Assembly (NCBI GenBank): GCA_964552405.1
Contig: CAZKID010000002.1
Location: 1 to 47,425 of the forward strand
Source: an uncultured Thermoanaerobaculia bacterium
GTDB lineage: Bacteria > Acidobacteriota > Thermoanaerobaculia > Gp7-AA8
Length of the DNA: 47,425 nt
Reading direction: 5' to 3'
This document shows, one piece after another, positions 11,171 through 25,026 of the stretch. Position 1 is the stretch's first letter. Each line of letters begins with the position of its first letter. The position numbers were made by a program, and so were the translations under genes. The notes beneath the pieces were generated by a model. The model did not search any database and was not told the origin of the DNA. It worked only from the letters and a program-made list of their open reading frames with translations.

Positions 11171-12532
11171 ATGCGCCCCAACCTTCTTGCGCGATTCGGA
11201 ATGCGCAGCGCTGATTTCTGCGAGCGCTGGTTTCCTGATGCGTTCGTCTTCGCACTGGCTGCCATCGTCTTCGTTTTCATCGGCGGACTCTCGATCGGTG
11301 TCGCACCTTCCACGCTCGCAACCGAGTTCGGCAATGGCTTCTGGTCGCTCGTCAACTTCACGATGCAGATGGCCGTCGTCATCATCGGCGGCTTCGTCGT
11401 GGCATCGTCGCCACCGATCGCGCGGCTCACACGCTCACTCGCGTCGATTCCGAAGTCGCCTCGCGGTGCGGTGGCGTTCGTCGCCGCGTTCGCGATGCTT
11501 TCCTCGCTGATCTCGTGGGGACTCTCGCTGATCTTCACCGGTCTGCTCGTGCGCGAAGTCGTTCGCCGCATCGAACGTGTCGACTACCGCGCCATCGGCG
11601 CTGCTGCCTATCTCGGCCTCGGCAGCGTCTGGGCGCTGGGTCTCTCCTCATCAGCCGCGCTGCTGCAGGCCACGAAGTCTTCGATTCCGCCCGCGCTTCT
11701 TCCGATCACCGGCGTGATACCTCTGACGCAGACTCTCTTCACCTGGCAGAACGGCGTGATGGCGGGAGTGCTCATCACGATCTCCGTTGCCGTCGCGTGG
11801 TTCTCCGCGCCGGACGCTTCGGAAGCGCGCACTGCAAGCGAAATGGGGGTCGTCTTCGAACCGATGGAGCTCGTGAGCGAAGAGCGGGCAGCAACTCCCA
11901 GCGAGCGCTTCGAGCAGAGTCCGATTCTCAGCGTCGTGATCGCCGCGTTGATGATCTGGTATCTCGTGACGACGTTCCGCGCGAAAGGCGGATTGGCCGC
12001 CTTCGATCTCAACAACTTCAACTTCGCGTTCATCGCCGCGGGCCTGCTGCTGCACTGGCGTCCGCGCTCGTTTCTTCGCGCGGTCGCGAAGTCCGTTCCG
12101 GCAACGGCGGGCGTGCTGATTCAGTTCCCGTTCTACGGCGGCATCTTCGGGATGATCTCGAAGACACCGATCGCCGAACGGCTCGCAGCGTTGTTCGTCG
12201 CAGTCACGACGAAGTCGACGTTTCCTCTCGTCGTCGCCGTCTACTCCGCAATCCTCGGCATGTTCGTTCCGTCAGGCGGCGGCAAGTGGGTGGTGGAGGC
12301 GCCGTACGCACTGGCCGCTGCAAAAAACCTCGGCGAGGACCTCGGTTGGACCGTGCAGATCTACAACGCGGCCGGGGCGCTGCCGAATCTGATCAATCCG
12401 TTCTGGATGCTGCCGCTGATGGGCATCCTGAACGTCCGCGCGCGCGACCTCGCGGGATACTCCGTGCTCCAGCTGATGTTCCACGCACCCGCCGTGCTTC
12501 TGCTCTGCTGGCTATTCGCTCAGACGTTTTAA
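11171..12532 (+). CDS. atoE: short-chain fatty acid transporter, AtoE family
   Basis: 453 aa. It is collinear with E. coli AtoE as I remember it ('FCERWFPDAFVFAL', 'GFWSLVNFTMQMAVVIIGG', 'VLIQFPFYGGI', 'VPSGGGKWVVEAPY'). Confidence 0.8.
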   Translation: MRPNLLARFGMRSADFCERWFPDAFVFALAAIVFVFIGGLSIGVAPSTLATEFGNGFWSLVNFTMQMAVVIIGGFVVASSPPIARLTRSLASIPKSPRGAVAFVAAFAMLSSLISWGLSLIFTGLLVREVVRRIERVDYRAIGAAAYLGLGSVWALGLSSSAALLQATKSSIPPALLPITGVIPLTQTLFTWQNGVMAGVLITISVAVAWFSAPDASEARTASEMGVVFEPMELVSEERAATPSERFEQSPILSVVIAALMIWYLVTTFRAKGGLAAFDLNNFNFAFIAAGLLLHWRPRSFLRAVAKSVPATAGVLIQFPFYGGIFGMISKTPIAERLAALFVAVTTKSTFPLVVAVYSAILGMFVPSGGGKWVVEAPYALAAAKNLGEDLGWTVQIYNAAGALPNLINPFWMLPLMGILNVRARDLAGYSVLQLMFHAPAVLLLCWLFAQTF

Positions 12533-13720
12533 CCGCTCGATGATCTGTGTGCGCATCGCGGGATCCTTCTCTTTTTCCGCGATGGCTTTCAGCTGCGTCG
12601 AAGCGCCTGTCACGCAGAGGGCGTCGAGCACCGCCTGACGCACTACGGCATCCGTGTCGGCGTCGTAGAACGACGCGATGGTCGCCGCATTGCCCCCTGC
12701 AAATGCGACGTTCCGAATCGCGGTTGCGCGCAGCATCGGGTTTTTCTCCGTCTTCGCGATCTCCATCAGCTTGTCGATGTTGCCGCCGATGAACAGACCT
12801 TCGATGATGCGTTTGCGGATGACAGTCGCGGTCTCTTTCGCGTAGAGGCTCGCCAACTCGGCGCGCGCACCGAGGGCTCCCAGGTTAATGACGGCCTCGC
12901 CGCGGAGGTCGACGTTTGGTTCTGTCTTCGCGAGCGCCAGCAACTGTTCACGATCACCAGTCGTCAGGAACGCCTTCATCACCGCGTGACGAACGACGAC
13001 GTCTTTCGTCGACGAGTAGACATCGGTGAGCGCCTTCTTCGATTCCTCTCCGCCTACGAACGAGAGATAGCGGACTGCGCGGCGCTGCAGCTCAGGACTA
13101 TTGGAGTCCTTCGCGGTCTTCACGACGATCGAGATCGCGCGCGGATCGCCCGACTGACTGAAGACGAAGAGGACCTTGTCCTTGACCTTCGTTCCATCTT
13201 TGCTGCGGAGAATCTCGTCGCCGATCCTCACGGCATTCTCCGGATCGTCTTCCATCATCCCGCTGAGTGCGATGATCTGCGTCGAAGGATCGTTCACGAC
13301 CGTGTAGGAAAATCCGTGGCCCGTTGCCTGCCGGATCTCGACTTCGAGCACCGCCGCATCTTCCTTCCACTTGCTCTTCGGATACCGCTGCTTCAGCTCC
13401 TCGATCGACGCGAGCGCATCGGCGCCCAAACCTCGCCTGTTGTACGAATAGGCGAGCCAGTAGAGCGCAGCATCCGCGTGCTCGAGACCTGCGTCGGCGA
13501 CGCGGCGATAGAGCGACGTTGCTGTCTGCCAGTCGTGCTCATCGAGGGCATCGTTCGCACGCGAATACAGCGACTCTTCGCGCGCCACTTTTCTCTCGTG
13601 CACGCGCTCCGATGCGATTTCGATCTCGGGCTCGGTCCATGACACCACGTTGCCGAACAGCGGCAACGTGATCAGAAGTACGGCAGCACTGCGGAACGGG
13701 ATCATGATGGGTTTCCTCAT
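12512..13720 (-). CDS. secreted HEAT/TPR-repeat protein, third gene of the ECF sigma operon
   Basis: Signal-like N-terminus 'MRKPIMIPFRSAAVLLITLPLFG'. Repeated 'D..VR.A....L' HEAT-like units. Its ATG (13718-13720) overlaps the anti-sigma stop as ATGA. Confidence 0.7.
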   Translation of the reverse strand: MRKPIMIPFRSAAVLLITLPLFGNVVSWTEPEIEIASERVHERKVAREESLYSRANDALDEHDWQTATSLYRRVADAGLEHADAALYWLAYSYNRRGLGADALASIEELKQRYPKSKWKEDAAVLEVEIRQATGHGFSYTVVNDPSTQIIALSGMMEDDPENAVRIGDEILRSKDGTKVKDKVLFVFSQSGDPRAISIVVKTAKDSNSPELQRRAVRYLSFVGGEESKKALTDVYSSTKDVVVRHAVMKAFLTTGDREQLLALAKTEPNVDLRGEAVINLGALGARAELASLYAKETATVIRKRIIEGLFIGGNIDKLMEIAKTEKNPMLRATAIRNVAFAGGNAATIASFYDADTDAVVRQAVLDALCVTGASTQLKAIAEKEKDPAMRTQIIERLKRLSE

Positions 13721-14457
13721 AGAGAATGCATTCGATTCGAGGCGAGAAGGTTCTGGCTCGGCCGCTCGCTTCGGGAATTCAGCACGCGCAGTTTGAACAG
13801 CAGGTTGCGTGCGTCGATGCGCTTCTGCAGATCCGCGAGCTCTTCGGGCGAGAGCTTGTCATCTGCATGCGAGAGCTCGACGAGCACCGGCTCGATGTCG
13901 GAAAGCACGTTCGCGATGCGCGCATCACCGCGCCGCATCGCCGTCTGACGATAGAGGCGATTCGCCGTGACCAGGTCCTCGGCGCGCGACTGCTCGCCGC
14001 TGACATCGAGATCCTTCGCGGGATCGGCATTCGCGACTTCCGTCAGGACGCGCTCGGCCGCATCGAGATGATCGCCGACGACATTGACGAGAACATTGGC
14101 TTCAGGATTGGGCTGCTTCGGAATCGCTGCAACAGCCGGCCGCTGGGGGTCGCTGGCAGGCTGTCGATGTCTCCAGATCTCGCCACCCACGAGGACGATT
14201 GCAAGCGCGGCGGCGACCGCAAGCAGCCACCGACGCGTCTTCCGCTCGCGGCGGTCGAGGCGCCAACGCAGCCGGTTCCAAACCTCATCGGCGTACGCGG
14301 GACCTCGCTGCGGCACTTCCGCCGCATCGACGAGCGCGAGCACCTGCTGCAGCGTCGCGTAGCGCGCACCACATTCACTGCACGCGGCGAGATGCTCGGC
14401 CGCATCCGCATCGCGATAGTGATGCGCAATCAGTTGTTCATCGTTCAGGTGTTGCAT
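13717..14457 (-). CDS. anti-sigma factor (zf-HC2-like N-terminus, single TM)
   Basis: 'HLAACSECGARYATL' is a putative zinc-finger motif, and there is a TM segment 'WLLAVAAALAIVLVGG'. It lies directly downstream of, and overlaps, the ECF sigma gene. Confidence 0.75.
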   Translation of the reverse strand: MQHLNDEQLIAHHYRDADAAEHLAACSECGARYATLQQVLALVDAAEVPQRGPAYADEVWNRLRWRLDRRERKTRRWLLAVAAALAIVLVGGEIWRHRQPASDPQRPAVAAIPKQPNPEANVLVNVVGDHLDAAERVLTEVANADPAKDLDVSGEQSRAEDLVTANRLYRQTAMRRGDARIANVLSDIEPVLVELSHADDKLSPEELADLQKRIDARNLLFKLRVLNSRSERPSQNLLASNRMHSL

Positions 14458-15014
14458 TGGTTCGGCCTCACGAGTGGCTCCAGGGAATCGCGCAGCTTTC
14501 GCACGGCGCGAAAAATCGTATGTTTCGCAGCGTTGACCTGGATCCCGAGTGTCTTGCCGATCTCTTCGACCGGCATTCCTTCGAAATGACGAAGAACGAA
14601 CGCGGTGCGCTCGTTGTCACTGAGCAATTTCATGGCAGCCGCGACCTGCCGCTGCACTTCGGCACTCAACACGACACGATCCGGCTCGGGCGCGCCGGAT
14701 GCCGCGTCCAGCAACTCATCGCTCGTCGTGTACTGCTTGTCGTGACGCTGGCGTGCGCGCAACAAGTCGAGCGAGCAGTTCACCGCGATGCGATGCAGCC
14801 ACGTCGAGAAGTTCGCACGCTCTTCAAAGCCGTCGATCTGACGATACGCGCGAAGAAACGTCTCCTGCACCACATCGTCGGCATCATGTTCGTTTCCAGT
14901 CATACGCCAGGCGACACGGAAGATGGAGCGGCTATGACGCTCGACGAGCAGCCGGAAGGCATCCGCGTCGCCGTCACGGGCACGGCTGACGGCTGCGACG
15001 TCGGTCATCTCCAT
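14445..15014 (-). CDS. ECF-type RNA polymerase sigma-70 factor
   Basis: 189 aa. Region 2 'DADDVVQETFLRAYRQIDGF' and region 4 'ERTAFVLRHFEGMPVEEIGKTLGIQVNAAKHTIFRAVRKLR'. Confidence 0.9.
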   Translation of the reverse strand: MEMTDVAAVSRARDGDADAFRLLVERHSRSIFRVAWRMTGNEHDADDVVQETFLRAYRQIDGFEERANFSTWLHRIAVNCSLDLLRARQRHDKQYTTSDELLDAASGAPEPDRVVLSAEVQRQVAAAMKLLSDNERTAFVLRHFEGMPVEEIGKTLGIQVNAAKHTIFRAVRKLRDSLEPLVRPNQCNT

Positions 15015-15061
15015 GTCGCTACCTTAGACTCTCGAGCCAGCTGGTGGTTAGCCCGATTAGA

Positions 15062-15147
15062 CAGCAGGCAGCAGGCAGCAGACAGCAGAGGGAACCGGCA
15101 GGCTCAACGGTTTACACATCCTGCTACCTGCTGCCTGCTGTCTGCTG
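15062..15147. repeat. about 27-bp imperfect inverted repeat built from tandem 7-nt units (GCAGGCA-type / CCTGCTG-type) around a 32-nt spacer
   Basis: Left arm 15062-15088 'cagcaggcagcaggcagcagacagcag' pairs with right arm 15121-15147 'ctgctacctgctgcctgctgtctgctg', with one 2-nt mismatch and one G-T. The spacer holds a smaller AACCG/CGGTT hairpin (15093-15112). Confidence 0.7.
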
Positions 15148-15175
15148 CCTGAAGGGTTACACTGTTCATCGCACC

Positions 15176-15200
15176 GAAACCTAACCTTCGCTGCTTCGTA
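15176..15200 (+). promoter_or_regulatory. candidate ECF-type promoter GAAAC-N16-CGTA upstream of the DUF4097-like gene
   Basis: GAAAC at 15176-15180, a 16-nt spacer, then CGTA at 15197-15200, 24 nt before ATG 15224. This matches the general ECF -35 'GAAC' / -10 'CGT' architecture. Confidence 0.4.
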
Positions 15201-15223
15201 ACGTCATTAGACGGGACACGACA

Positions 15224-16066
15224 ATGAAACGTGGTGCGATCGCAATCCTCTTCGCGATCGCGTCCGTGAGTGCGCTCTCTGCGCCTCCGGTCGCGACATC
15301 GACTACGAGCGCCTCCACCACGAGCGCGGCACCTGCACCCGGGCCGCCACCAACGCGATCCCTCATCGTCACCTCGCAGGACTTCTCCAGCCTTCTCGCC
15401 GACGACTGCGATCACTTCCACACGCGCAACACGACCTCGTTCCCCGCCGCCTCGCGCTCGCAGGAACAGCAGGACATCGCACTGCAAGGCATCGATGTGC
15501 TGAAGATTCACAGCAGCGAGCAAGGTGGGATCCTCGTTCGCGGCTGGGACAAGCCGACTGCGCGGCTCACGGTCTGCAAAGAAGCTGTTGGCTTCACGCA
15601 GCAGCAGGCGCAACGGACGCTGGGTGCAATCAACATCTCGTCGCGCAACGGCGACGTCAGCGCCACAGGTCCAACGAACGATGAGACGCAAGCCTGGTGG
15701 GTCCACATGATCCTTCGCGTTCCTCGCAACGCGGGACTCGAAGTGACCTCGGCCAACGGCGGCATCGCGATCCGCAACATGAACGGCAGGATCACCGCGC
15801 GCGCGAAAAACGGCGGTATCTCCATCGAGAAGACCTCAGGGCAGATCGACGCGTCGACGGTGAACGGTCCGATCTCTCTCAAGCTGGGGCAGGACCAGAG
15901 CTCGTCGGTCGAAGCGCGAATTGCCGATGCGGGCGAGATCTTCTGCCGTATCTGCCGCGCGGAAAACTACAGCGCGAATCACAAGCTCGTCCGGATTGGC
16001 AACGCCGCTCCTTCCATCAAACTGACGACGACGAGCGCTCCCATCGTGATCGATCAAGTACGATGA
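15224..16066 (+). CDS. secreted DUF4097-like (putative adhesin / beta-helix) protein
   Basis: Signal peptide 'MKRGAIAILFAIASVSALSA'. Repeated 'SANGGIAIRN / AKNGGISIEK / TVNGPISLKL' strands typical of DUF4097-type beta-helices. Confidence 0.6.
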   Translation: MKRGAIAILFAIASVSALSAPPVATSTTSASTTSAAPAPGPPPTRSLIVTSQDFSSLLADDCDHFHTRNTTSFPAASRSQEQQDIALQGIDVLKIHSSEQGGILVRGWDKPTARLTVCKEAVGFTQQQAQRTLGAINISSRNGDVSATGPTNDETQAWWVHMILRVPRNAGLEVTSANGGIAIRNMNGRITARAKNGGISIEKTSGQIDASTVNGPISLKLGQDQSSSVEARIADAGEIFCRICRAENYSANHKLVRIGNAAPSIKLTTTSAPIVIDQVR

Positions 16067-16077
16067 TGCGCTGACGC

Positions 16078-17019
16078 ATGCATCGGCTGATCGAGCTCAT
16101 TCTTCATTACGGCGTTCCTCTCGTCTGTCTGAACGTCTTTCTCGAACAGATCGGCGCGCCGATTCCGGCGGTTCCTACGCTGATCATCGCGGGAGCACTC
16201 GCGCGCAATGGGCAGTTGTCGTCGTCGCACGTGCTCACCGGCGCGCTCCTCTCATCGGTCGTCGCCGACTGGATCTGGTTCCTCCTCGGCCGCCGCTACG
16301 GCTACCGTATTCTTCGCACGCTGTGCCGTATCTCGCTCTCGCCGGATACCTGCGTGCGAGAGACCGAGGCGAACTTCGAAAAGTGGGGGATGCGGTCGCT
16401 GCTCTTCGCGAAGTTCGTTCCCGGATTCTCGACGGTCGCGCCTCCTCTCGCGGGTGCAACCAAGGCGAGCACGCTCGAGTTTCTCGTGTTCGATGCAATC
16501 GGCGCCTTCCTGTGGGCCGGTTCAGCCGTGGTCGCGGGCCGCGCATTTCATCATCAGATCGGCACCCTGCTGCAGCGTCTGGAAGATCTTGGCTGGTGGT
16601 CGGTGACGATCGTCGTGTCGATCGTCGCGCTGTTCATCCTCATCAAGTGGTATCAGCGGCTTCACTTCTACCAGCAGCTCCGCGTCGCGCGCATCAGCGT
16701 GAATGAAGTGAAAGACATGATTGATCGCGGAGAGTCGCCGGTCGTCATGGACGTGCGTACACGCGCGTCGAGGAAGCAGGATCTGCGGCGCATTCCGACG
16801 GCGATCGTCGCGGCGACACCGGAAGAAGTCGCGCAACAATTGGAGAGCATTCCGGTCGGGACGCCGATCATCTTGTACTGCACGTGACCAAACGAGGCCT
16901 CAGCCGCCCGTGTGGCGCGCATGCTGATGGATCGGGGATACAAGAAAGTACGGCCTCTCGCGGGAGGATTCGACGCGTGGGTCGATGCCGGTTTTCCAGT
17001 CGAGGACTTGAGTGAATGA
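16078..17019 (+). CDS. DedA/VTT membrane domain fused to a C-terminal rhodanese domain, interrupted by an in-frame TGA at 16885-16887 (candidate selenocysteine codon, or else a nonsense mutation/pseudogene)
   Basis: Track ORF 16078..16887 ends '...GTPIILYCT*'. The same frame continues 'PNEASAARVARMLMDRGYKKVRPLAGGFDAWVDAGFPVEDLSE*' to TGA 17017-17019, completing the rhodanese fold. That stop overlaps the next gene's ATG as ATGA. Confidence 0.6.
16901..16926 (+). other. candidate SECIS-like hairpin 13 nt downstream of the in-frame TGA
   Basis: Lower stem CAGC (16901-04) / GCUG (16923-26). Upper stem CGCC (16905-08) / GGCG (16914-17). Apical loop CGUGU. 3' internal loop CGCAU. Folded by eye only. 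Confidence 0.3.
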
Positions 17020-17831
17020 CGGAGTCGACCTACATCCACGGAACCGCGCCCGAGGAACAGCGCCGGCTCTCGCTGCTGAATGATGTGCTGCTGAATCCCG
17101 CATCGTTGCGCGAGATCGCACTTCACGGCGACGAGCGCGTCATCGACTTCGGCTCCGGCCTCGGACAGTTCTCGCGGACGATGGCCCGCGCGCTGCCGCA
17201 AGGACGTGTCGTCGGTGTCGAACGCAGCGACGAGCAGCTCGCACTCGCACGAAGACTTGCGGCAGAGGAAGGCGAGGCCGATCTAGTGGACTTTCGCCAG
17301 GGCGATGTGCTCGACGCGGACCTCGAGTGGGGAACGTACGACGTAGCACACGCGCGCTTCGTGCTCGAACATGTTCCGGATCCTCTGCGCGTAGTGAAGA
17401 GCATGGTGCGCGCAGTTCGTCCCGGAGGCCGCATCATCCTCGCGGACGATGATCACGATGTCCTTCGGCTCTGGCCCGAACCGCCGGGCATCGCGGAATT
17501 GTGGCGAGCCTACATGCGCAGCTATGACCGCATCGGCAACGATCCGTTCATCGGACGGCGGCTCGTGCAATTGCTGCACGACGCGGGGGCGCAGCCAGTG
17601 CGCTGCACCGTGATCTTCTTCGGCGGCTGTGCGGGGATGGAGATCTTTCCGACGCTCGCGGCGAACATGATTGGTGTGGTCCGTAGCGCGCGCGACACGA
17701 TTCTCTCGATGGGACTCTTCGATGAGAAGGCCTTCGACGCCGTGCTCCGCGAGTACGAAGCGTGGTCGAAACGACCGGACGCGGCCATCTGGTTCACGAT
17801 GCCCTGGGCGGAAGGGAGAGCGGGCTCGTGA
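17016..17831 (+). CDS. class I SAM-dependent methyltransferase
   Basis: 271 aa with motif I 'VIDFGSGLGQF' and post-I/II 'DVAHARFVLEHVPDP...PGGRIIL'. It is not EgtD-like (no Methyltransf_33-type N-terminus). Confidence 0.85.
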   Translation: MTESTYIHGTAPEEQRRLSLLNDVLLNPASLREIALHGDERVIDFGSGLGQFSRTMARALPQGRVVGVERSDEQLALARRLAAEEGEADLVDFRQGDVLDADLEWGTYDVAHARFVLEHVPDPLRVVKSMVRAVRPGGRIILADDDHDVLRLWPEPPGIAELWRAYMRSYDRIGNDPFIGRRLVQLLHDAGAQPVRCTVIFFGGCAGMEIFPTLAANMIGVVRSARDTILSMGLFDEKAFDAVLREYEAWSKRPDAAIWFTMPWAEGRAGS

Positions 17832-17928
17832 GGTGGAGGACAGGCGCCCCCGCCTGTCCACCGAGCCGACAGGCGAGGGCGCCCGTCGCCCCACGGAGTG
17901 AGCACAAAAGCTGCAGTCCGACTCATCC

Positions 17929-19494: not shown

Positions 19495-20829
19495 GTGCGA
19501 CACGCGGCATTTCCGCGCGGCATCACTCGCGAAGACCTCGTCCGTTGGTATCGCGCAGGCCGCAAGAATTCGAAGGCGATCTTCTCGATTCCTGTCGAGA
19601 GCGCGTATTACGAGCGTCCCATCGCCCTTCGCAATCCAATCGTCTTCTACGAAGGCCATCTTCCCGCGTTCGCGGTGAACACGCTCATCAAGCTCGCGCT
19701 TCAACACGGCGGAATCGATGAGCACTTCGAGGTGCTCTTCGCGCGCGGCATCGATCCCGACAGCGTCGATGCCGTGAAGAATCCAACCGATGTCTGGCCG
19801 CGCCGCAGCGCCGTGCTCGAGTACGGAAGTCAAGCCGATGCGATGATCGAAGACACGCTCGGTTACGCGACGATCGAAGACGGCTCCGTCCCGCAACTGC
19901 GCGGCGCGGAGGCGGCGATCGCGATCCTCGAGCATGAGCAGATGCATCAGGAAACTCTGCTCTATATGTTTCACAACCTTCCCTATTCGAAGAAAGTGAA
20001 GCAGCCGGCACTCAATGCCTCAACGCCTCAACGCATAACGAATCGCGAAACCGGTATGGTCCGCATCCCGCGCGGCATCGCAACTCTCGGTGGCGATGAA
20101 GGTGTGTTCGGCTGGGACAACGAGTTTCCCTCGCTCCAGGTCGACGTTCCGGAATTTCTCGTCGACCGCCACAACGTGACGAACGGCGAGTTCATGCAGT
20201 TCGTCCAAGCGGGCGGCTATCGCGACCCTTCCTTCTGGAGCGAAGCGAACTGGAGTTGGGTGACGACGGAGAAGGTTGAACATCCCCACTTCTGGCTGAA
20301 GAACGAGCGCGGCTGGTTCTGGCGCGGCATGTTCGCGCTGATTCCATTGCCGGAAGACACTCCCGTCTACGTCACACTCGCGGAGGCGGAAGCGTATGCG
20401 CGCTGGCGCAACGCGCGCGTGATGTCGGAGGCCGAGTACCACCGCGCTGCGTTCGGAACACCATCCGGGGAAGAACGTCCGTTTCCGTGGGGCGATGAGC
20501 CTGCCGATCCATCGCGCGGCAATTTCGGATTCGCAAACTGGGATCCTGTTCCGGTTGGTTCGTATCCGGCGGGCGCGAGCGCGTGGGGCGTTCATGATCT
20601 CGCGGGCAACGGCTGGGAGTGGACGTCGACACCGTTCGCCGGGTTCCCAGGCTTTCAGCCGATGGCCTCGTATCCCGTCTACTCCAGCGACTTCTTCGAT
20701 GGTGAGCACTACGTGCTGAAGGGCGCCTCACCAGCGACTTCGCCGGAGATGATCCGCCGTAGCTTCCGCAATTGGTTTCGCGGCACGTATCCGTATCTGT
20801 ACGCGAAGTTCCGCTGCGTGCAGTCATAG
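19495..20829 (+). CDS. EgtB/OvoA-like sulfoxide synthase (DinB-like iron domain plus FGE-sulfatase domain)
   Basis: GTG start 10 nt after the previous stop. 'FYEGHLPAF' and 'LEHEQMHQETL' look like DinB-type His ligands. 'GWDNEFP', 'VTNGEFMQFV' and 'GNGWEWTSTPF' are FGE-domain motifs. There is no fused methyltransferase domain. Confidence 0.75.
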   Translation: MRHAAFPRGITREDLVRWYRAGRKNSKAIFSIPVESAYYERPIALRNPIVFYEGHLPAFAVNTLIKLALQHGGIDEHFEVLFARGIDPDSVDAVKNPTDVWPRRSAVLEYGSQADAMIEDTLGYATIEDGSVPQLRGAEAAIAILEHEQMHQETLLYMFHNLPYSKKVKQPALNASTPQRITNRETGMVRIPRGIATLGGDEGVFGWDNEFPSLQVDVPEFLVDRHNVTNGEFMQFVQAGGYRDPSFWSEANWSWVTTEKVEHPHFWLKNERGWFWRGMFALIPLPEDTPVYVTLAEAEAYARWRNARVMSEAEYHRAAFGTPSGEERPFPWGDEPADPSRGNFGFANWDPVPVGSYPAGASAWGVHDLAGNGWEWTSTPFAGFPGFQPMASYPVYSSDFFDGEHYVLKGASPATSPEMIRRSFRNWFRGTYPYLYAKFRCVQS

Positions 20830-20849
20830 TTCGTGCATTGCGAATACGC

Positions 20850-21479
20850 ATGGAAATGAAGACCTACCAGGCAAAGCAATTCAATCTCAGCGGGCTCACC
20901 GGCATCTCGGACAAGACGCTCGAGATGCATTTCAAACTCTATGAAGGCTACGTCACGAACACGAACACATTGACGGAGCGCATTGCGGCAATTCTCGCCG
21001 ACGGCAAAGTCGATCAGGAGGAAATGCCCGCCTACTCGGAGCTCACGCGCCGCCTTGGTTTCGAATACAACGGCATGGTTCTGCACGAGTACTACTTCGG
21101 CAACTTGCGCAACGGAGGCGGCGGAGATCCGGATCGTAAGTCCGAGTTCATGCAGTCGGTATCGCGCAGCTTCCCTTCATATGAGATCTGGAAGGCCGAC
21201 TTCGTCAGCGTAGGCAAGATGCGCGGCGTTGGCTGGGCAATCTGCTATCTCGATCCCGCGAACGGCCACGTCTCGAATCACTGGATCACGATGCACGAGA
21301 CGGGCAACATCGCGGGCTTCGTTCCGCTGCTCGTCATGGATGTGTGGGAGCACGCGTTCCTGCTCGACTACAAACCGTCAGACAGACCAAAGTACATCGA
21401 TGCATTCATGGCGAATGTCGACTGGCGAGTGGTGGAGAGCCGATTGAGCGCGGTGCAGGTGACTGCAACGGTACGTTAG
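20850..21479 (+). CDS. atypical Fe/Mn-superoxide-dismutase-family protein
   Basis: Start 'MEMKTYQAKQF' (ATG 20850 or 20856). The C-terminal 'DVWEHAFLLDY' matches the SOD D-x-W-E-H-A-Y-Y metal motif. The N-terminal 'H..HH' motif is degenerate ('EMHFKLYEGYV'). Confidence 0.7.
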   Translation: MEMKTYQAKQFNLSGLTGISDKTLEMHFKLYEGYVTNTNTLTERIAAILADGKVDQEEMPAYSELTRRLGFEYNGMVLHEYYFGNLRNGGGGDPDRKSEFMQSVSRSFPSYEIWKADFVSVGKMRGVGWAICYLDPANGHVSNHWITMHETGNIAGFVPLLVMDVWEHAFLLDYKPSDRPKYIDAFMANVDWRVVESRLSAVQVTATVR

Positions 21480-21489
21480 GGGTTTCGCT

Positions 21490-21559
21490 GTCATCCTGAG
21501 CGTGAGCGAAGGAGCCCGAGGTCGAGGGGTCCTTCGCCTTCTTCGCGGCTCAGGATGAC
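21490..21559. repeat. REP-like palindromic element, family A (GTCATCCTGAGC ... GCTCAGGATGAC)
   Basis: Outer arms 21490-21501 and 21548-21559 are perfect complements. Inner arms are 'gcgaaggagccc' and 'gggtccttcgc'. It sits between convergent genes, and its right arm supplies the last codons and stop of the 1158-aa gene. Confidence 0.75.
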
Positions 21560-24500
21560 GCCAGTTCCACCGTTCCCTTGCGCTCGAGCTTGCCCCAGCC
21601 CGCTCGAATTCCGGAGATGGCGGTCTTCAGTGATTTGAGCAGCACGGCATACATCAATTGCCTGTAGAGAAACCGCTGCCAGAAGAGCCATACGAGCATC
21701 TTCGGATCTTCGCGATCGAGTTTGAAGGCCACGCTCGCCCCTATGAGCTCGATGACGAAGAAGAACGCGTACATGAACGCGACGACATAAAGCTGCGACG
21801 CGGCCACCGGGAACGGCTGCCAGTCCTGCGTGAGATCGCGTCGCAGCATCGCATCGATCGTCTTGCCGAGCGCCCAGAGGATCTGCAAGTCGACGAGAGG
21901 TGACAGTGCCTGATATGCGATCTGGAACAACCAGAGCGACGGGAGCATCAGCCGTCCAAACCATCCGTACCGTCCGATCGCACGGCGATGCTTCCAAAGA
22001 CACTGCAGCGTGCCGAACGCCCAGCGGAAGCGCTGCTTGAACAACGCGCGGAACGAATCCGGCGCCTCCGTGTAGCCGACCGCCTCGGTTTCCGTATCGA
22101 CACGCCAGCCGATCCTGCGGATTTTCCACGTCAGATCCATATCCTCGGCCATCGTGTCCGTCGTATAGCCACCCGCTTGCAGAATCGCTTCGCGCCGCCA
22201 GGCGCCGACCGCACCAGGCACGACGGAAACCGAATTGAGGAACGAGTACGCGCGGCGATCGAGATTCTGGCTCGTGACGTATTCGATCGCCTGCCAGTAC
22301 GTCAGCGGGTTGATGCGGTTCCCAACCTTCACATTGCCGGCAACCGTTCCCACGAGCGGATCCGCGAAGCGGCGGGTCAGCTTGCTGATCGTCTCCTTCG
22401 CGAAGATCGTGTCGGCATCGAGCGCGATGATGATCTCGCCCGGCGCCATCGCGATGCCTCGATTGAGAGCTGACGCCTTCCCGCCATTCTCCTGACGAAT
22501 CAACCGCACTTTCGGATTGCCACCGAACTCGCGCTCGACGGCAGCCGACGTGTCATCGACTGAGCCATCGTCGACGACGATGATCTCCAGCTCGCCGGAG
22601 TAATCGTTCGCGAGCACCGCGTCGAGCGTTCGCCCGATGACCTTCCCTTCGTTGTACGCCGCAATCACCACACTGACCGGCGGCCGATAGGTTTCGTCGA
22701 ATGGCGCGTGATGCCGCTCTTTGTACTTCGCCACCAGCGCCATCACCGTGATGAACACGACGCGCAAGGTGCCAAGGATGATCGCCGAGACGAACGCGAT
22801 GCTGAGGAAGAGCTCGAAGAGATACATCATCTCGAAGACGACGCGATCGCTGGCGAGCATCAGCGTGTCGGAGTTCGTCACCTTCGGGTTCACGTCATCA
22901 CGCGTTGCATTGACGAGCGCGGAAACCGTGACGAATTTCTTGCCGCGCTTCTGCAGCTCATTAACGAGCAGCGGGATCAGCTTCACGGTCTCGCTACGGT
23001 CGCCGCCCCCGTCGTGCAGCAGGATGCAGCTTCCTTTTTCCGTTTCGATCTGCTGCAGGACCGTCTGCAGCATCTCCTGCGCAGTGCGCTTGCGGATCGT
23101 GCCGTCTTCCAGCCGCTCCTCGGTCTTCCAGTCCTGCGGGTCGAGGAACTCGAGGACCGTGATGTAGTTCATCTCCGAGGCGGTGACGATCGGCATCACT
23201 TCTTCCCTGGCAGTTGGCTCCGCATCCGCGTTATAGGGGGGGCGGAAAAGCAGTGTCGAGCGATGGAGGATGCTCTGAAACACTCGCTGCGTCGCATTGA
23301 TCTCGTACTCGGCGCGCATCGAGGACACCGCTCCGATGTTCGGATGCGTGTAGCTGTGATTGCCGATCTCGTGGCCTTCGTTCCAGATGCGGCGCACGAG
23401 ACCCGGGTAGCGATCGGCGTTCTGTCCGATGAGAAAGAAGGTCGCTTTCACGTTCAACGCCTTCAGTTCGTCGAGCATCTGCGCGGTGTACGGCGAGGCA
23501 GGACCATCGTCGATCGTCAGCGCGATGAGGTCGGGATTGAACCCGCTCCGCTGGATGACATACGAGGTTGGAAATTGCTTGTAGACCTCGTCGAGAAAGA
23601 GACCGGTTTGCGGATCGATCTCCATGTCTCGCTGTGCCTTCTTGGGGGTCGCCGCAACGCGAGCGATTTCTCCGTCGCCGACGAAGTCGACGTCGTACGG
23701 AAATTCGATCTCGCGCAGGGTCGCGCGATTTGGTTTGAGGCGGAGACGATCGCGCCGGATGAATTTGAAGATTGACGGGTCGCATGAACCGAGAACCCAA
23801 ACCGCGACACCACGTGGTTTGTACGGCTCGGCAATCATCCACTCGTTGGCCGCCGTGATCGCATCGAGCATCCAGACTTCGTGCTCGATTCCATCATCGT
23901 CGACGTAGAAGAACGTCGGGTTCAGCGCGACATCGTCGAAGTCGACGATCTTGTCCGGCGTTTCACCCGGATGAAACCTCTTTGCTTCCACGAGCGCAGC
24001 TTGATACGTCAGCGGCTCCGCCCACTGGCGATTCTCCGCCCAGTCGTATGCGTAGTTCGCGATTCCGATCACGAGCTTGTCTCGCGAAACGTCGCGTCTG
24101 GCGCGCTCGATCACGGTCCTGAACCAATTGATCGACGAGATCGGTCCCGGCTTGCTCGTCGAGCTGTGTTCGTCGTAGGCCATGACCACCACGAAGTCGC
24201 ACACTTGCGACGCGGCCTTCCAGTCCAACGGCTTCGGCGCCTCGAGATCGGCACTCACAAGGAGTTGCGCCGACGCGAACATCACCTTGATCCGCTTCAA
24301 GAAAGAAATCAGGCGCGGATAGTCTTCGGGATAGAGATTCTCGAAGTCGACGTTGATGCCCTGGAATCGATTCGCTTGAATCCATGTGCGCAACTGCAGG
24401 ATGACCTTCTCCTGCAGCACCGGATCGGTTAGAAGGATATGCGCGCGTTTCGGATCGAAATCCGACTGCTGCGCATTGCTGAAGATCGGAACGATGTTGA

Positions 24501-25026
24501 TGTTGTTTCCACGACAGACGCCTAAGACCTCGCGATTGTGAGGCGTCGTCTCGAGATCCCAATCGCGGAAGTCGAGACCTGCGCCATCGGACCGGAGGTG
24601 GACCCATGCCGGAAGCAGATGCGTCAGATTGTCCGCGTTGGCCCGCAGTGAGTGGAGGCCCGTCTCCTGCCATGGCGCGTAGAACGCCGCGACGATACCG
24701 TTGTCGGGGACGGGCGCCTGTGCCGCCACCTTTTCTCCAGCCGCCTGCCGATCTTTGTTGATCTGCGCGAACAGCTTGTCGCGATCCTTACGCTGCTTGT
24801 ACTGCTGAAGGCGCGACATGTGGCGCGGCAGACGTACTGCACGGTGCAGCGTACGCTTCAGCTCGGAGGTAAGCCCCGGCATGTCGGGGAGAAACGGCGT
24901 CGACGAGAGGCTGATCAGAAAAAGGCTGACGACAACGACAGACAGGAGTCCAAGGATCGTGGAGATCCGCTTGATCCATCCCCACCGCTTGCGCGAGGGA
25001 TCGAAGAAGATGGCCCTATCGGACAC
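21550..25026 (-). CDS. tri-domain exopolysaccharide enzyme: N-terminal TM plus GH18-like domain, CE4 (NodB) polysaccharide deacetylase, and GT2 processive glycosyltransferase (PgaC/IcaA/MatB-like)
   Basis: 1158 aa, GTG start. CE4 motifs 'LTIDDGP' and 'HEIGNHSYTHP'. GT2 motifs 'VSVVIAAYNE', 'DDGSVDDT', 'LDADT' and 'QRFRWAFG'. C-terminal TM helices. Confidence 0.85.
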   Translation of the reverse strand: MSDRAIFFDPSRKRWGWIKRISTILGLLSVVVVSLFLISLSSTPFLPDMPGLTSELKRTLHRAVRLPRHMSRLQQYKQRKDRDKLFAQINKDRQAAGEKVAAQAPVPDNGIVAAFYAPWQETGLHSLRANADNLTHLLPAWVHLRSDGAGLDFRDWDLETTPHNREVLGVCRGNNINIVPIFSNAQQSDFDPKRAHILLTDPVLQEKVILQLRTWIQANRFQGINVDFENLYPEDYPRLISFLKRIKVMFASAQLLVSADLEAPKPLDWKAASQVCDFVVVMAYDEHSSTSKPGPISSINWFRTVIERARRDVSRDKLVIGIANYAYDWAENRQWAEPLTYQAALVEAKRFHPGETPDKIVDFDDVALNPTFFYVDDDGIEHEVWMLDAITAANEWMIAEPYKPRGVAVWVLGSCDPSIFKFIRRDRLRLKPNRATLREIEFPYDVDFVGDGEIARVAATPKKAQRDMEIDPQTGLFLDEVYKQFPTSYVIQRSGFNPDLIALTIDDGPASPYTAQMLDELKALNVKATFFLIGQNADRYPGLVRRIWNEGHEIGNHSYTHPNIGAVSSMRAEYEINATQRVFQSILHRSTLLFRPPYNADAEPTAREEVMPIVTASEMNYITVLEFLDPQDWKTEERLEDGTIRKRTAQEMLQTVLQQIETEKGSCILLHDGGGDRSETVKLIPLLVNELQKRGKKFVTVSALVNATRDDVNPKVTNSDTLMLASDRVVFEMMYLFELFLSIAFVSAIILGTLRVVFITVMALVAKYKERHHAPFDETYRPPVSVVIAAYNEGKVIGRTLDAVLANDYSGELEIIVVDDGSVDDTSAAVEREFGGNPKVRLIRQENGGKASALNRGIAMAPGEIIIALDADTIFAKETISKLTRRFADPLVGTVAGNVKVGNRINPLTYWQAIEYVTSQNLDRRAYSFLNSVSVVPGAVGAWRREAILQAGGYTTDTMAEDMDLTWKIRRIGWRVDTETEAVGYTEAPDSFRALFKQRFRWAFGTLQCLWKHRRAIGRYGWFGRLMLPSLWLFQIAYQALSPLVDLQILWALGKTIDAMLRRDLTQDWQPFPVAASQLYVVAFMYAFFFVIELIGASVAFKLDREDPKMLVWLFWQRFLYRQLMYAVLLKSLKTAISGIRAGWGKLERKGTVELASS

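What the first reader, a model, noticed from the sequence alone, without database searches (positions are those of the whole stretch)
16078..17019. In-frame TGA inside the rhodanese active-site loop of a DedA-rhodanese fusion: candidate selenocysteine codon
Seen directly:
- The ORF stops at TGA 16885-16887 immediately after '...PIILYCT'.
- The same frame continues for 43 codons ('PNEASAARVARMLMDRGYKKVRPLAGGFDAWVDAGFPVEDLSE'). This is the missing remainder of a rhodanese fold: the rest of the loop, the following helix and the 'GG..AW' strand.
- The extended frame ends at TGA 17017-17019, overlapping the ATG of the downstream methyltransferase as ATGA. Seven other junctions in this window use the same coupling geometry (7443, 13717, 18726, 26087, 31667, 32506, 34030).
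- A hairpin begins 13 nt after the TGA (16901-16926: CAGC/GCUG, CGCC/GGCG, loop CGUGU). This puts a G/U-containing apical loop about 22-26 nt from the UGA, within the range used for bacterial SECIS models.

From memory, and needing an alignment to confirm:
- Related rhodaneses carry C-[ST]-C-P-N-E-A in this loop, so the TGA would sit where a Cys is normally found. That would be the classic Sec/Cys pair and would give a C-x-U redox motif.
- Rhodanese-related sulfurtransferases have been listed among Sec-containing families in metagenomic selenoproteome surveys.
- A DedA protein has been genetically linked to selenite resistance/uptake in Ralstonia metallidurans.

Alternatives: a recent TGC-to-TGA nonsense mutation (pseudogene) or a base-call error.
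Basis: partly seen in the sequence, partly recalled or inferred. Interest (0 to 1): 0.8.

Follow-up and report, generated by a model that had tools for sequence, protein, structure and literature searches.

The report
Selenocysteine codon in DedA–rhodanese membrane protein
The apparent stop codon at 16885-16887 is almost certainly a conserved selenocysteine codon, so this gene encodes a 313-residue membrane-anchored rhodanese selenoprotein that public databases list as a truncated 269-residue protein.

Summary

- **Sec/Cys pair.** The TGA sits at loop position +2 of a rhodanese active site (L-Y-C-T-TGA-P-N-E). 30 other species-level genomes carry TGA at this column. 50 more distant homologs carry TGC or TGT. 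All 54 full-length 50 %-identity representatives have Cys there.
- **Tail is translated.** The 36 codons after the TGA show the same purifying selection as in Cys forms (per-site differences 0.15/0.16/0.49 at codon positions 1/2/3).
- **SECIS.** A hairpin 21 nt after the UGA (stem 16905-16908/16914-16917, loop CGUGU) meets every published bSECIS constraint. It has compensatory changes at synonymous sites (24:30 CG×24/GC×7, none broken). Cys forms encoding the identical peptide lack it.
- **Relation to known families.** CxU rhodanese selenoproteins are known (NCBIfam NF041203), and DedA–rhodanese fusions are known as Cys proteins (PA1209). This protein scores 85 bits against NF041203's 115-bit cut-off. 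I found no annotation or paper describing the Sec form of the fusion. It is a new variant of a known kind.
- **Limits.** Sec machinery in this genome could not be checked. Function is inferred only: probably a cytoplasm-facing Cys-x-Sec redox or chalcogen-transfer centre, and the DedA domain lacks two of the four flippase-essential residues.

The parts
16078..17019 (+). Full selenoprotein CDS (313 aa plus stop): DedA/VTT membrane domain, then a rhodanese domain, read through UGA-270
   Evidence: tblastn covers query residues 1-309 or more in 80 genomes.
16162..16542 (+). VTT/DedA domain (residues 29-155)
   Evidence: Pfam PF09335, 50.6 bits against a 33.9-bit cut-off. NCBIfam DedA and UptA models match far below their cut-offs.
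16324..16353 (+). Conserved C83-x8-C92 pair (LCRxSLSxDxCVxxTE) in the Arg/Lys-rich central loop of the DedA domain
   Evidence: Both Cys are at least 95 % conserved in all 81 family members, Sec and Cys forms alike. The loop at residues 70-110 has 8 K/R against 4 D/E.
16696..16986 (+). Rhodanese domain (residues 207-303), spanning the UGA
   Evidence: Pfam PF00581, 45.9 bits, profile positions 1-101 of 102. Best NCBIfam match is NF041203 rhodanese_LYCAU at 85 bits.
16879..16881 (+). TGC codon for Cys268, the canonical rhodanese catalytic cysteine
   Evidence: Aligns with the catalytic Cys of the C-G-G-G-F-R-S loop of PDB 6mxv. Invariant in the family.
16885..16887 (+). UGA codon for selenocysteine 270 (active-site loop position +2, giving C-T-U)
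   Evidence: TGA in 31 genomes and TGC/TGT in 50 at the same column. Sec and Cys forms are reciprocally monophyletic. 54 of 54 full-length representatives have Cys.
16888..17016 (+). 43 codons after the UGA: the rest of the rhodanese loop, the helix and the GG..AW strand
   Evidence: Pairwise differences at codon positions 1/2/3 are 0.154/0.160/0.487 in Sec forms against 0.161/0.154/0.426 in Cys forms.
16903..16920 (+). bSECIS core hairpin: stem 16905-16908/16914-16917, plus 16903-16904 pairing with 16919-16920 across a 1-nt bulge, and apical loop CGUGU at 16909-16913
   Evidence: Pair 24:30 is CG×24/GC×7 with 0 broken. Pair 21:33 is GC×18/CG×9/GU×2/other×2. All four columns are synonymous third positions, and 0 of 500 shuffles reach the covariation score. 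All published bSECIS constraints are met. Absent from Cys forms.
16901..16926 (+). Weakly supported.
   Evidence: The outer helix is 78 % paired with no compensatory change. Pairs 17:42 and 20:39 fail in 13 and 7 of 31 sequences.
17017..17019 (+). True stop codon (TGA), overlapping the ATG at 17016 of the downstream SAM-methyltransferase ORF
   Evidence: 21 of the 31 Sec-form genes also end in a terminating TGA, so UGA is a normal stop in these organisms.

Best explanation
UGA at 16885-16887 is decoded as selenocysteine, by the standard bacterial route: Sec-tRNA(Sec) delivered by SelB to a SECIS hairpin just downstream in the mRNA. Here the SECIS is a short G+C stem with apical loop CGUGU, 21 nt after the UGA. 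The product is a 313-residue inner-membrane protein. It has an N-terminal DedA/VTT domain, a last transmembrane helix, and a probably cytoplasmic rhodanese domain whose active-site loop reads Cys268-Thr-Sec270-Pro-Asn-Glu-Ala.

Shown here:
- conservation of the TGA;
- the Cys/Sec pairing;
- translation of the tail;
- the RNA element.

Inferred:
- Cys268 and Sec270 form a redox-active selenenylsulfide or chalcogen-transfer centre, not a classical thiosulfate-binding rhodanese site. The loop has Glu and no basic residue.
- This centre may work with the invariant C83-x8-C92 pair in the cytoplasmic loop of the DedA domain.
- The DedA domain is not a canonical undecaprenyl-phosphate flippase, because it lacks the equivalents of YghB D51 and R136.

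The stated confidence refers to Sec decoding. The specific chemistry is a low-confidence hypothesis.
For: - **Sec/Cys pair.** 31 genomes carry TGA (C-[T/S]-TGA-P-N-E) and 50 carry TGC/TGT (C-A-C-P-N-E) at one aligned column. The two forms are reciprocally monophyletic in an NJ tree, so a single switch was then retained down to about 48 % identity. In the exhaustive 50 %-identity library, 31 of the 150 best representatives end exactly at [YF]C[TSA], and all 54 full-length ones have Cys there.
- **Tail translated.** Per-site differences at codon positions 1/2/3 are 0.154/0.160/0.487, matching the Cys forms. The Pfam Rhodanese model spans the TGA.
- **SECIS.** Compensatory changes occur at synonymous sites (24:30 CG×24/GC×7, none broken; 21:33 GC×18/CG×9/GU×2). 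0 of 500 shuffles reach the covariation score, and slid registers collapse to 27-58 % paired. The loop is CGUGU in 29 of 31 sequences.
- **bSECIS constraints all met** (as quoted in PMC13188914): loop 3-9 nt, upper stem of at least 4 bp, G in the first two loop positions followed by G or U, 16-37 nt spacing, MFE at or below -7.5 kcal/mol. Here the loop is 5 nt, G is second and followed by U, spacing is 21 nt, and MFE is at or below -9.5 in 31 of 31.
- **Controls.** Among the 50 Cys forms, the loop is AAGGU-like and only 7 form all four core pairs. Six Cys forms that encode the identical peptide CTCPNEASAARVA use CGC rather than CGU for the Arg, and none forms all four pairs. CGU is only 15 % of Arg codons in the window's genes.
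- **Not an artefact.** An independent Logan assembly is identical.
- **UGA is otherwise a stop.** 21 of the 31 Sec-form genes end in TGA.
- **Precedent.** The CxU rhodanese selenoprotein family NF041203 is the best NCBIfam match. Acidobacteria include Sec users.
Against: - selA, selB, selC and selD could not be looked for in this genome. None lies in the 47-kb window, which has no tRNA and no Rfam hit.
- The conserved stem is short (4 bp core), and the window's hairpin is thermodynamically ordinary (z = 0.27).
- RNAfold on single sequences often picks other registers. Pair 24:30 appears in the MFE fold of only 12 of 31.
- The 24:30 swap is probably one evolutionary event, since all 7 sequences carrying it form one sub-clade.
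- There is no selenium-incorporation or expression data.
- For the functional part, no gene neighbour is conserved across the family. No close solved structure exists (best is 6mxv at 35 bits). Topology rests only on hydropathy and the positive-inside rule.
Confidence: 0.88

Rival explanations
1. UGA-270 is recoded without selenium. For example, Cys could be inserted by a tRNA(Sec)-like tRNA-Cys with a UCA anticodon (the selC* type), or near-cognate Trp/Cys read-through could be stimulated by the hairpin.
For: SelB-dependent Cys-inserting selC* tRNAs and unusual suppressor-like allo-tRNAs have been described, the latter in Acidobacteria (PMC5389517). Sec machinery was not verified for this genome. 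The family tolerates Cys at this column.
Against: selC* genes were reported only in anaerobic Firmicutes, Thermodesulfobacteria, Nitrospirae and Proteobacteria, and always alongside a full Sec system. Maintaining a TGA plus a hairpin merely to insert Cys has no obvious advantage over TGC. The hairpin fits the SelB-type bSECIS model.
Confidence: 0.06
2. The TGA is a genuine stop. The functional product is the 269-residue DedA protein with a truncated rhodanese, and the downstream 43 codons are untranslated or separately translated.
For: All public gene calls stop here: 118 of the 120 closest entries end ...[LV]YCT. Sec insertion is usually inefficient, so a truncated product probably co-exists with the full-length one.
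Against: The tail is under in-frame purifying selection indistinguishable from the Cys forms. It completes the rhodanese fold (Pfam profile 1-101 of 102). It aligns codon-for-codon from the first residue after the TGA, which leaves no room for a separate start. A rhodanese cut inside its active-site loop would be non-functional.
Confidence: 0.03
3. The TGA is a recent TGC-to-TGA nonsense mutation (a pseudogene), or a base-call or assembly error.
For: It would be a single-nucleotide change from TGC. The source is a metagenome-assembled genome.
Against: TGA occurs at the identical column in 30 other species-level genomes from independent studies and in 31 separate 50 %-identity clusters. The Sec forms make a deep monophyletic clade. 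A second assembler reproduces the base. There is no decay downstream.
Confidence: 0.01

Closest known systems
NCBIfam NF041203 'rhodanese_LYCAU, rhodanese-related (seleno)protein'. [quoted passage not shown] First reported by Zhang & Gladyshev 2005.
   Same: It is the best NCBIfam match for the rhodanese domain (profile positions 14-125 of 126). It has the same L-Y-C-x-U motif, with Sec at loop position +2 after the catalytic Cys, and the same Sec/Cys alternation.
   Different: The score is 85 bits against a 115-bit cut-off, and six other family members score 50-82 bits. The model describes a roughly 126-residue stand-alone domain, whereas here the domain is the C-terminal part of a 313-residue DedA membrane protein. 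The middle residue is T or S rather than A in Sec forms.
DedA(COG0586)-rhodanese fusion proteins, for example P. aeruginosa PA1209 (311 aa)
   Same: The architecture (PF09335 + PF00581) and length are the same. The Cys forms found here (C-x-C) are of this kind.
   Different: [quoted passage not shown] No Sec form is mentioned there, and no paper in the library holds selenocysteine, rhodanese and DedA together. Orthology to PA1209 itself was not tested.
[quoted passage not shown]
   Same: It is also a rhodanese-type selenoprotein fused to a multi-pass membrane domain with thiol chemistry. There is a weak local match to residues 262-310.
   Different: The match is only 18 bits against an 805-bit cut-off. 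TsoB has a different membrane domain (DsbD-like), a different motif (UxxxxU) and two Sec residues.
Canonical DedA undecaprenyl-phosphate flippases (E. coli YghB/YqjA, B. subtilis UptA)
   Same: The VTT/DedA core fold is recognised by Pfam. The E39-equivalent Glu is present in most Sec forms, and the R130 equivalent is retained as Lys.
   Different: The D51 equivalent is V/L/I/Y/W and the R136 equivalent is S/A in all 13 members aligned. UptA and DedA equivalog scores are far below their cut-offs (36-47 bits against 236-300). The family has an extra CX8C loop motif and a rhodanese domain.

Membership tests
Bacterial selenoprotein gene (Sec-UGA plus bSECIS) | In-frame TGA aligned with Cys in homologs (Sec/Cys pair) | tested here: met
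   31 TGA against 50 TGY at one column. 54 of 54 full-length representatives have Cys.
Bacterial selenoprotein gene (Sec-UGA plus bSECIS) | TGA-containing orthologs in other organisms, with conserved coding sequence downstream | tested here: met
   30 other genomes carry it. Codon-position differences are 0.154/0.160/0.487 after the TGA.
Bacterial selenoprotein gene (Sec-UGA plus bSECIS) | bSECIS model: 3-9 nt apical loop, upper stem of at least 4 bp, G in the first two loop positions, 16-37 nt from the UGA, MFE at or below -7.5 kcal/mol | tested here: met
   Loop CGUGU (5 nt, G second and followed by U), spacing 21 nt, 4-6 bp stem, MFE at or below -9.5 in 31 of 31. Covariation supports it.
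Bacterial selenoprotein gene (Sec-UGA plus bSECIS) | selA, selB, selC (tRNA-Sec) and selD present in the same genome | not testable with these tools
   Only 47 kb of the genome is available, with no tRNA and no Rfam hit in it. The literature shows Sec users within Acidobacteria(ota).
Bacterial selenoprotein gene (Sec-UGA plus bSECIS) | Selenium physically incorporated at the UGA position | not testable with these tools
   Needs 75Se labelling or mass spectrometry.
NF041203 rhodanese_LYCAU (seleno)protein | Score at or above the curated equivalog cut-off (115 bits) | tested here: not met
   85 bits for the window protein and 50-82 bits for six other family members.
NF041203 rhodanese_LYCAU (seleno)protein | L-Y-C-x-U/C motif, with Sec or Cys two residues after the catalytic Cys | tested here: met
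   LYCT-U in the window. The family shows C-[TSA]-U or C-x-C.
NF041203 rhodanese_LYCAU (seleno)protein | Single-domain protein of about 126 residues | tested here: not met
   The profile is 126 positions long. Here the domain occupies residues 197-310 of a 313-residue DedA fusion.
Rhodanese homology domain (PF00581) | Pfam model above its gathering score, with Cys at the active-site loop | tested here: met
   45.9 bits against 22.2, profile positions 1-101 of 102. Cys268 aligns to the catalytic Cys of 6mxv.
DedA/VTT family (PF09335) | Pfam VTT_dom above its gathering score | tested here: met
   50.6 bits against 33.9, residues 29-155.
COG0586-type DedA undecaprenyl-phosphate flippase (YghB/UptA) | The four essential residues at the re-entrant helix tips (YghB E39, D51, R130, R136; PMC10127716) | tested here: not met
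   MAFFT alignment with E. coli YghB: E39 aligns to E in most Sec forms but to L/E/S in Cys forms; D51 to V/L/I/Y/W; R130 to K; R136 to S/A. UptA models score 36-39 bits against cut-offs of 250-300.
DedA-rhodanese fusion (PA1209 type) | N-terminal PF09335 plus C-terminal PF00581 in one polypeptide of about 310 residues | tested here: met
   The literature describes the architecture. Orthology to PA1209 was not tested.

The most novel reading that the evidence does not exclude
The DedA-rhodanese family may be a membrane-embedded chalcogen-handling machine built on four invariant S/Se residues: C83-x8-C92 on the cytoplasmic loop of a DedA domain that has lost the flippase signature, plus Cys268-x-Sec270 in the rhodanese loop. 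It would couple transport by the DedA domain to reduction or transfer of a sulfur or selenium species at the membrane face. One example would be uptake and reduction of selenite or a related oxyanion. [quoted passage not shown]
Probability: 0.1. Interest if true: 0.8.

Novelty: new variant of a known kind. Interest (0 to 1): 0.5.

Why it matters
- **Annotation.** A widespread protein of soil Acidobacteriota/Thermoanaerobaculia and some Betaproteobacteria is systematically mis-called as a 268-270-residue truncation. 118 of the 120 closest entries are affected, as are 31 of 85 classifiable 50 %-identity clusters. The current NCBIfam selenoprotein model would not rescue it, because scores are 50-85 bits against a 115-bit cut-off.
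- **Biology.** As far as I could find, this would be the first DedA-family selenoprotein. Sec almost always marks a catalytic redox residue. Its presence therefore indicates that the C-x-C/U centre of DedA-rhodanese fusions does redox or chalcogen-transfer chemistry. A recent DedA survey called the role of these rhodanese domains 'unclear'.
- **Methods.** The locus offers a compact, covariation-supported SECIS (4-6 bp stem with a CGUGU loop) from a phylum that is poorly represented in SECIS models.

Tried and rejected
- **Rfam and ARAGORN on the window:** no hit and no tRNA, so no tRNA-Sec here.
- **Folding energy as evidence:** rejected (z = 0.27).
- **Alternative hairpin register** (19:32 to 23:28), which RNAfold prefers for several single sequences: rejected. 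Column 21 pairing with column 30 would be G·G in 18 sequences.
only weakly supported.
- **Functional linkage to the downstream methyltransferase:** rejected as a family feature. It is syntenic in only 7 of 30 Sec loci and 0 of 50 Cys loci.
- **Unbiased neighbour clustering:** no partner is shared by Sec and Cys forms. The RidA-like neighbour is specific to the Cys clade, and the ECF sigma/HEAT neighbours are specific to the Sec clade.
- **GC3-based scan for other in-frame-TGA genes in the window:** only shadow-frame-like candidates, not pursued.
- **PDB sequence search:** no close structure, best 35 bits.
- **Apparent stand-alone C-T-C rhodaneses**: three of the six examined turned out to be frameshift-broken full DedA-rhodanese genes (L082, L083, L086). 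The other three (L084, L085, L087) are cut at a contig end, so their architecture is unresolved.
Full report
**Observation.** The ORF 16078-16887 ends with ...P-I-I-L-Y-C-T followed by TGA (16885-16887). The same frame runs on for 43 codons (PNEASAARVARMLMDRGYKKVRPLAGGFDAWVDAGFPVEDLSE) to TGA 17017-17019, which overlaps the ATG of the next ORF as ATGA. Pfam finds a VTT/DedA domain at residues 29-155 and a rhodanese domain at 207-303. The rhodanese match covers profile positions 1-101 of 102 and runs straight across the TGA. Taken alone, the window is not compelling. A 43-codon open extension is expected about one time in four at this GC content (my arithmetic). The downstream hairpin folds no better than shuffled sequence (-17.9 kcal/mol, z = 0.27).

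**The stop is conserved and pairs with Cys.** A protein search returned 120 best hits at 62-100 % identity that all cover only 86 % of the read-through query and are 228-280 residues long. 118 of them end ...[LV]YCT. A scan of one genome per species gave 80 loci in which tblastn matched query residues 1-309 or more, that is, beyond the stop. At the aligned column:
- 30 loci plus the window carry TGA, in the context C-[T/S]-TGA-P-N-E. They are Acidobacteriota/Thermoanaerobaculia MAGs plus a sub-clade in Betaproteobacteria/Burkholderiales MAGs.
- 50 loci carry TGC or TGT, in the context C-A-C-P-N-[ED]. They are Casimicrobiaceae and other Betaproteobacteria, Lysobacteraceae (including the isolate Tahibacter caeni) and Rhizomicrobium.

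In an NJ tree the 31 TGA forms and the 50 Cys forms are reciprocally monophyletic. That implies one Cys/Sec switch, retained across a clade that has diverged to about 48 % identity. An exhaustive HMMER search of 1.84 billion 50 %-identity representatives found 429 relatives at E ≤ 1e-30. Among the best 150, 31 end exactly at [YF]-C-[TSA], and 54 are full length. All 54 have Cys at the column (C-A/S/D/T/G/N/E-C).

**The tail is translated.** Over the 36 codons after the TGA, mean pairwise differences per site at codon positions 1/2/3 are 0.154/0.160/0.487 in TGA forms and 0.161/0.154/0.426 in Cys forms. This is the signature of protein-level purifying selection. 21 of the 31 TGA-form genes also finish with a terminating TGA, so UGA remains a normal stop in these organisms. 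The two UGAs must be told apart by local context.

**SECIS.** I aligned the 70 nt starting at the TGA in the 31 TGA forms (column 1 = window 16885).
- The loop at columns 25-29 is CGUGU in 29 sequences and CGGGU in 2.
- It is flanked by a stem, columns 21-24 pairing with 30-33.
- Columns 21, 24, 30 and 33 are all synonymous third positions, and they covary. Pair 24:30 is C-G in 24 and G-C in 7, with none broken. Pair 21:33 is G-C in 18, C-G in 9, G-U in 2 and unpaired in 2.
- None of 500 column shuffles reaches the observed covariation score. Sliding the 3' partners by 1-3 columns drops pairing from 93.5 % to 27-58 %.
- Two further pairs (19:36 and 20:35, across a 1-nt bulge) hold in 26 of 31. 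In the other five the stem is a contiguous 6 bp.

Measured against the published bSECIS model (loop 3-9 nt, upper stem at least 4 bp, G in the first two loop positions followed by G or U, 16-37 nt from the UGA, MFE ≤ -7.5 kcal/mol; PMC13188914), this element has a 5-nt loop with G second followed by U, a 21-nt spacing and MFE ≤ -9.5 kcal/mol in 31 of 31.

There are two negative controls. First, among the 50 Cys forms the loop is AAGGU-like and only 7 form all four core pairs. Second, six Cys-form genes from other Proteobacteria encode the identical peptide C-T-C-P-N-E-A-S-A-A-R-V-A. They use CGC instead of CGU for the Arg (loop CGCGU, 5 of 5), and none forms all four pairs. CGU accounts for only 15 % of Arg codons in 15 window genes. 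The hairpin is therefore selected at the RNA level, and only where the codon is TGA.

**Artefact and pseudogene readings** are excluded by the above. In addition, an independent Logan assembly contig (2803 nt) is identical to window 15060-17862, including the TGA.

**Comparison with known families.** Rhodanese selenoproteins are established. A 2026 review lists five forms, including 'form 3', NCBIfam NF041203, with motif CxU, credited to Zhang & Gladyshev 2005. NF041203 ('rhodanese_LYCAU, rhodanese-related (seleno)protein', 126 positions) is the best NCBIfam match for our residues 197-310. The score is only 85 bits against a 115-bit cut-off, and six other family members, Sec and Cys alike, score 50-82 bits. 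The domain is thus a sister of that stand-alone family and not a member of it.

DedA-rhodanese fusions are also known as an architecture. [quoted passage not shown] Neither review mentions DedA, SNARE or VTT. No paper in the library holds selenocysteine, rhodanese and DedA together. No NCBIfam model covers the fusion. The Sec form of the fusion therefore appears undescribed and unannotated.

**Function (inferred).**
- Cys268 aligns with the canonical catalytic Cys of the nearest solved rhodanese (6mxv, loop C-G-G-G-F-R-S). That places Sec270 at loop position +2.
- The loop C-T-U-P-N-E-A has a Glu and no basic residue. This is atypical for thiosulfate binding. This last point is my reading from general knowledge of rhodanese loops.
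- Both chalcogen positions are invariant in the family. Sec normally occupies catalytic redox positions. A C-x-U selenenylsulfide or chalcogen-transfer centre is therefore the most economical reading.
- Two further cysteines, C83 and C92 (LCRxSLSxDxCVxxTE), are at least 95 % conserved in all 81 members. They lie in the K/R-rich central loop (8 basic against 4 acidic residues). By the positive-inside rule this loop is cytoplasmic, as is the rhodanese domain that follows the last TM helix and the KWYQRLHFYQQLRVAR segment.
- Aligned with E. coli YghB, the family lacks equivalents of D51 (V/L/I/Y/W) and R136 (S/A). It keeps R130 as Lys and keeps E39 only in most Sec forms. By the criteria of PMC10127716, that argues against a canonical proton-driven UndP flippase.

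**Context.** The gene lies in a run of same-strand ORFs:
- DUF4097 protein (15224-16066);
- this gene;
- SAM-methyltransferase (17016-17831, ATGA-coupled);
- NTP_transf_5-like ORF;
- metallophosphoesterase;
- FGE-sulfatase-domain protein;
- Fe/Mn superoxide dismutase.

An ECF sigma factor is encoded divergently upstream. There is no terminator-like site between the TGA and the next gene. The methyltransferase is syntenic in only 7 of 30 Sec loci, the sigma factor in 14 of 30, and neither occurs in any Cys locus. No neighbour is shared across the whole family.

**Limits.** The Sec-decoding machinery of this genome could not be examined. The literature shows only that Acidobacteria(ota) and Betaproteobacteria include Sec users. 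There is no experimental evidence.

**Verdict.** This is a genuine, deeply conserved selenoprotein gene with a covariation-supported SECIS. It is a new variant of a known kind: a CxU rhodanese selenoprotein fused to a DedA membrane domain. Its value lies in correcting a systematic mis-annotation and in pointing to redox chemistry for an enigmatic DedA subfamily. Interest is 0.5.

Noticed in passing
window 16324-16353 (residues C83 and C92): An invariant C-x8-C pair (LCRxSLSxDxCVxxTE) sits in the basic central loop of the DedA domain. It is conserved in all 81 family members, whether the rhodanese loop has Sec or Cys. It could act as a relay partner of the C-x-U centre.
   Followed up: partly
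window 16078-16650 (DedA domain), compared with E. coli YghB (L088:2564-3223): The family lacks the equivalents of YghB D51 (V/L/I/Y/W) and R136 (S/A), two of the four residues reported as essential for UndP-flippase-type DedAs. R130 is kept as Lys.
   Followed up: yes
window 12512-15014 (- strand); also L002, L003, L005, L007-L011, L014-L017, L021: An ECF sigma-70 gene (14445-15014), an unannotated ORF (13717-14457, possibly an anti-sigma factor) and a HEAT/TPR protein (12512-13720) lie next to the selenoprotein gene. The sigma factor is linked to it in 14 of 30 Sec-form loci, on either side, and in 0 of 50 Cys-form loci. It is unclear whether this reflects regulation or only clade synteny.
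   Followed up: partly
L022 and L027: Two MAGs labelled 'uncultured Streptomycetaceae' carry Sec-form genes that nest inside the betaproteobacterial Sec sub-clade, and they share its G24:C30 SECIS variant. The contigs are probably mis-binned or mis-classified. The sub-clade itself suggests transfer of the gene together with its SECIS between phyla.
   Followed up: no
L082:1070-1995, L083:1074-1941, L086:799-1783: In these assemblies the Cys-form DedA-rhodanese genes are split across two or three reading frames, so gene callers report only a 150-190-residue 'rhodanese'. The contig names suggest long-read assemblies, so indel errors are the likely cause.
   Followed up: partly
window 21550-25026 (- strand): A 1158-residue multi-domain ORF combines GH18, polysaccharide deacetylase and family-2 glycosyltransferase domains. 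It looks like an exopolysaccharide or chitin-type synthase and modifier fusion.
   Followed up: no
window 19495-21479 (+ strand): An FGE-sulfatase-domain protein (444 aa) is followed by an overlapping Fe/Mn superoxide dismutase ORF, in the same-strand run as the selenoprotein gene. This hints at an oxidative-stress context.
   Followed up: no
L028-L080 (Cys-form loci), immediately downstream of the gene: In 41 of 50 Cys-form loci a RidA/YjgF-like ORF directly follows the DedA-rhodanese gene. It is never present in Sec-form loci. This is probably lineage synteny.
   Followed up: no
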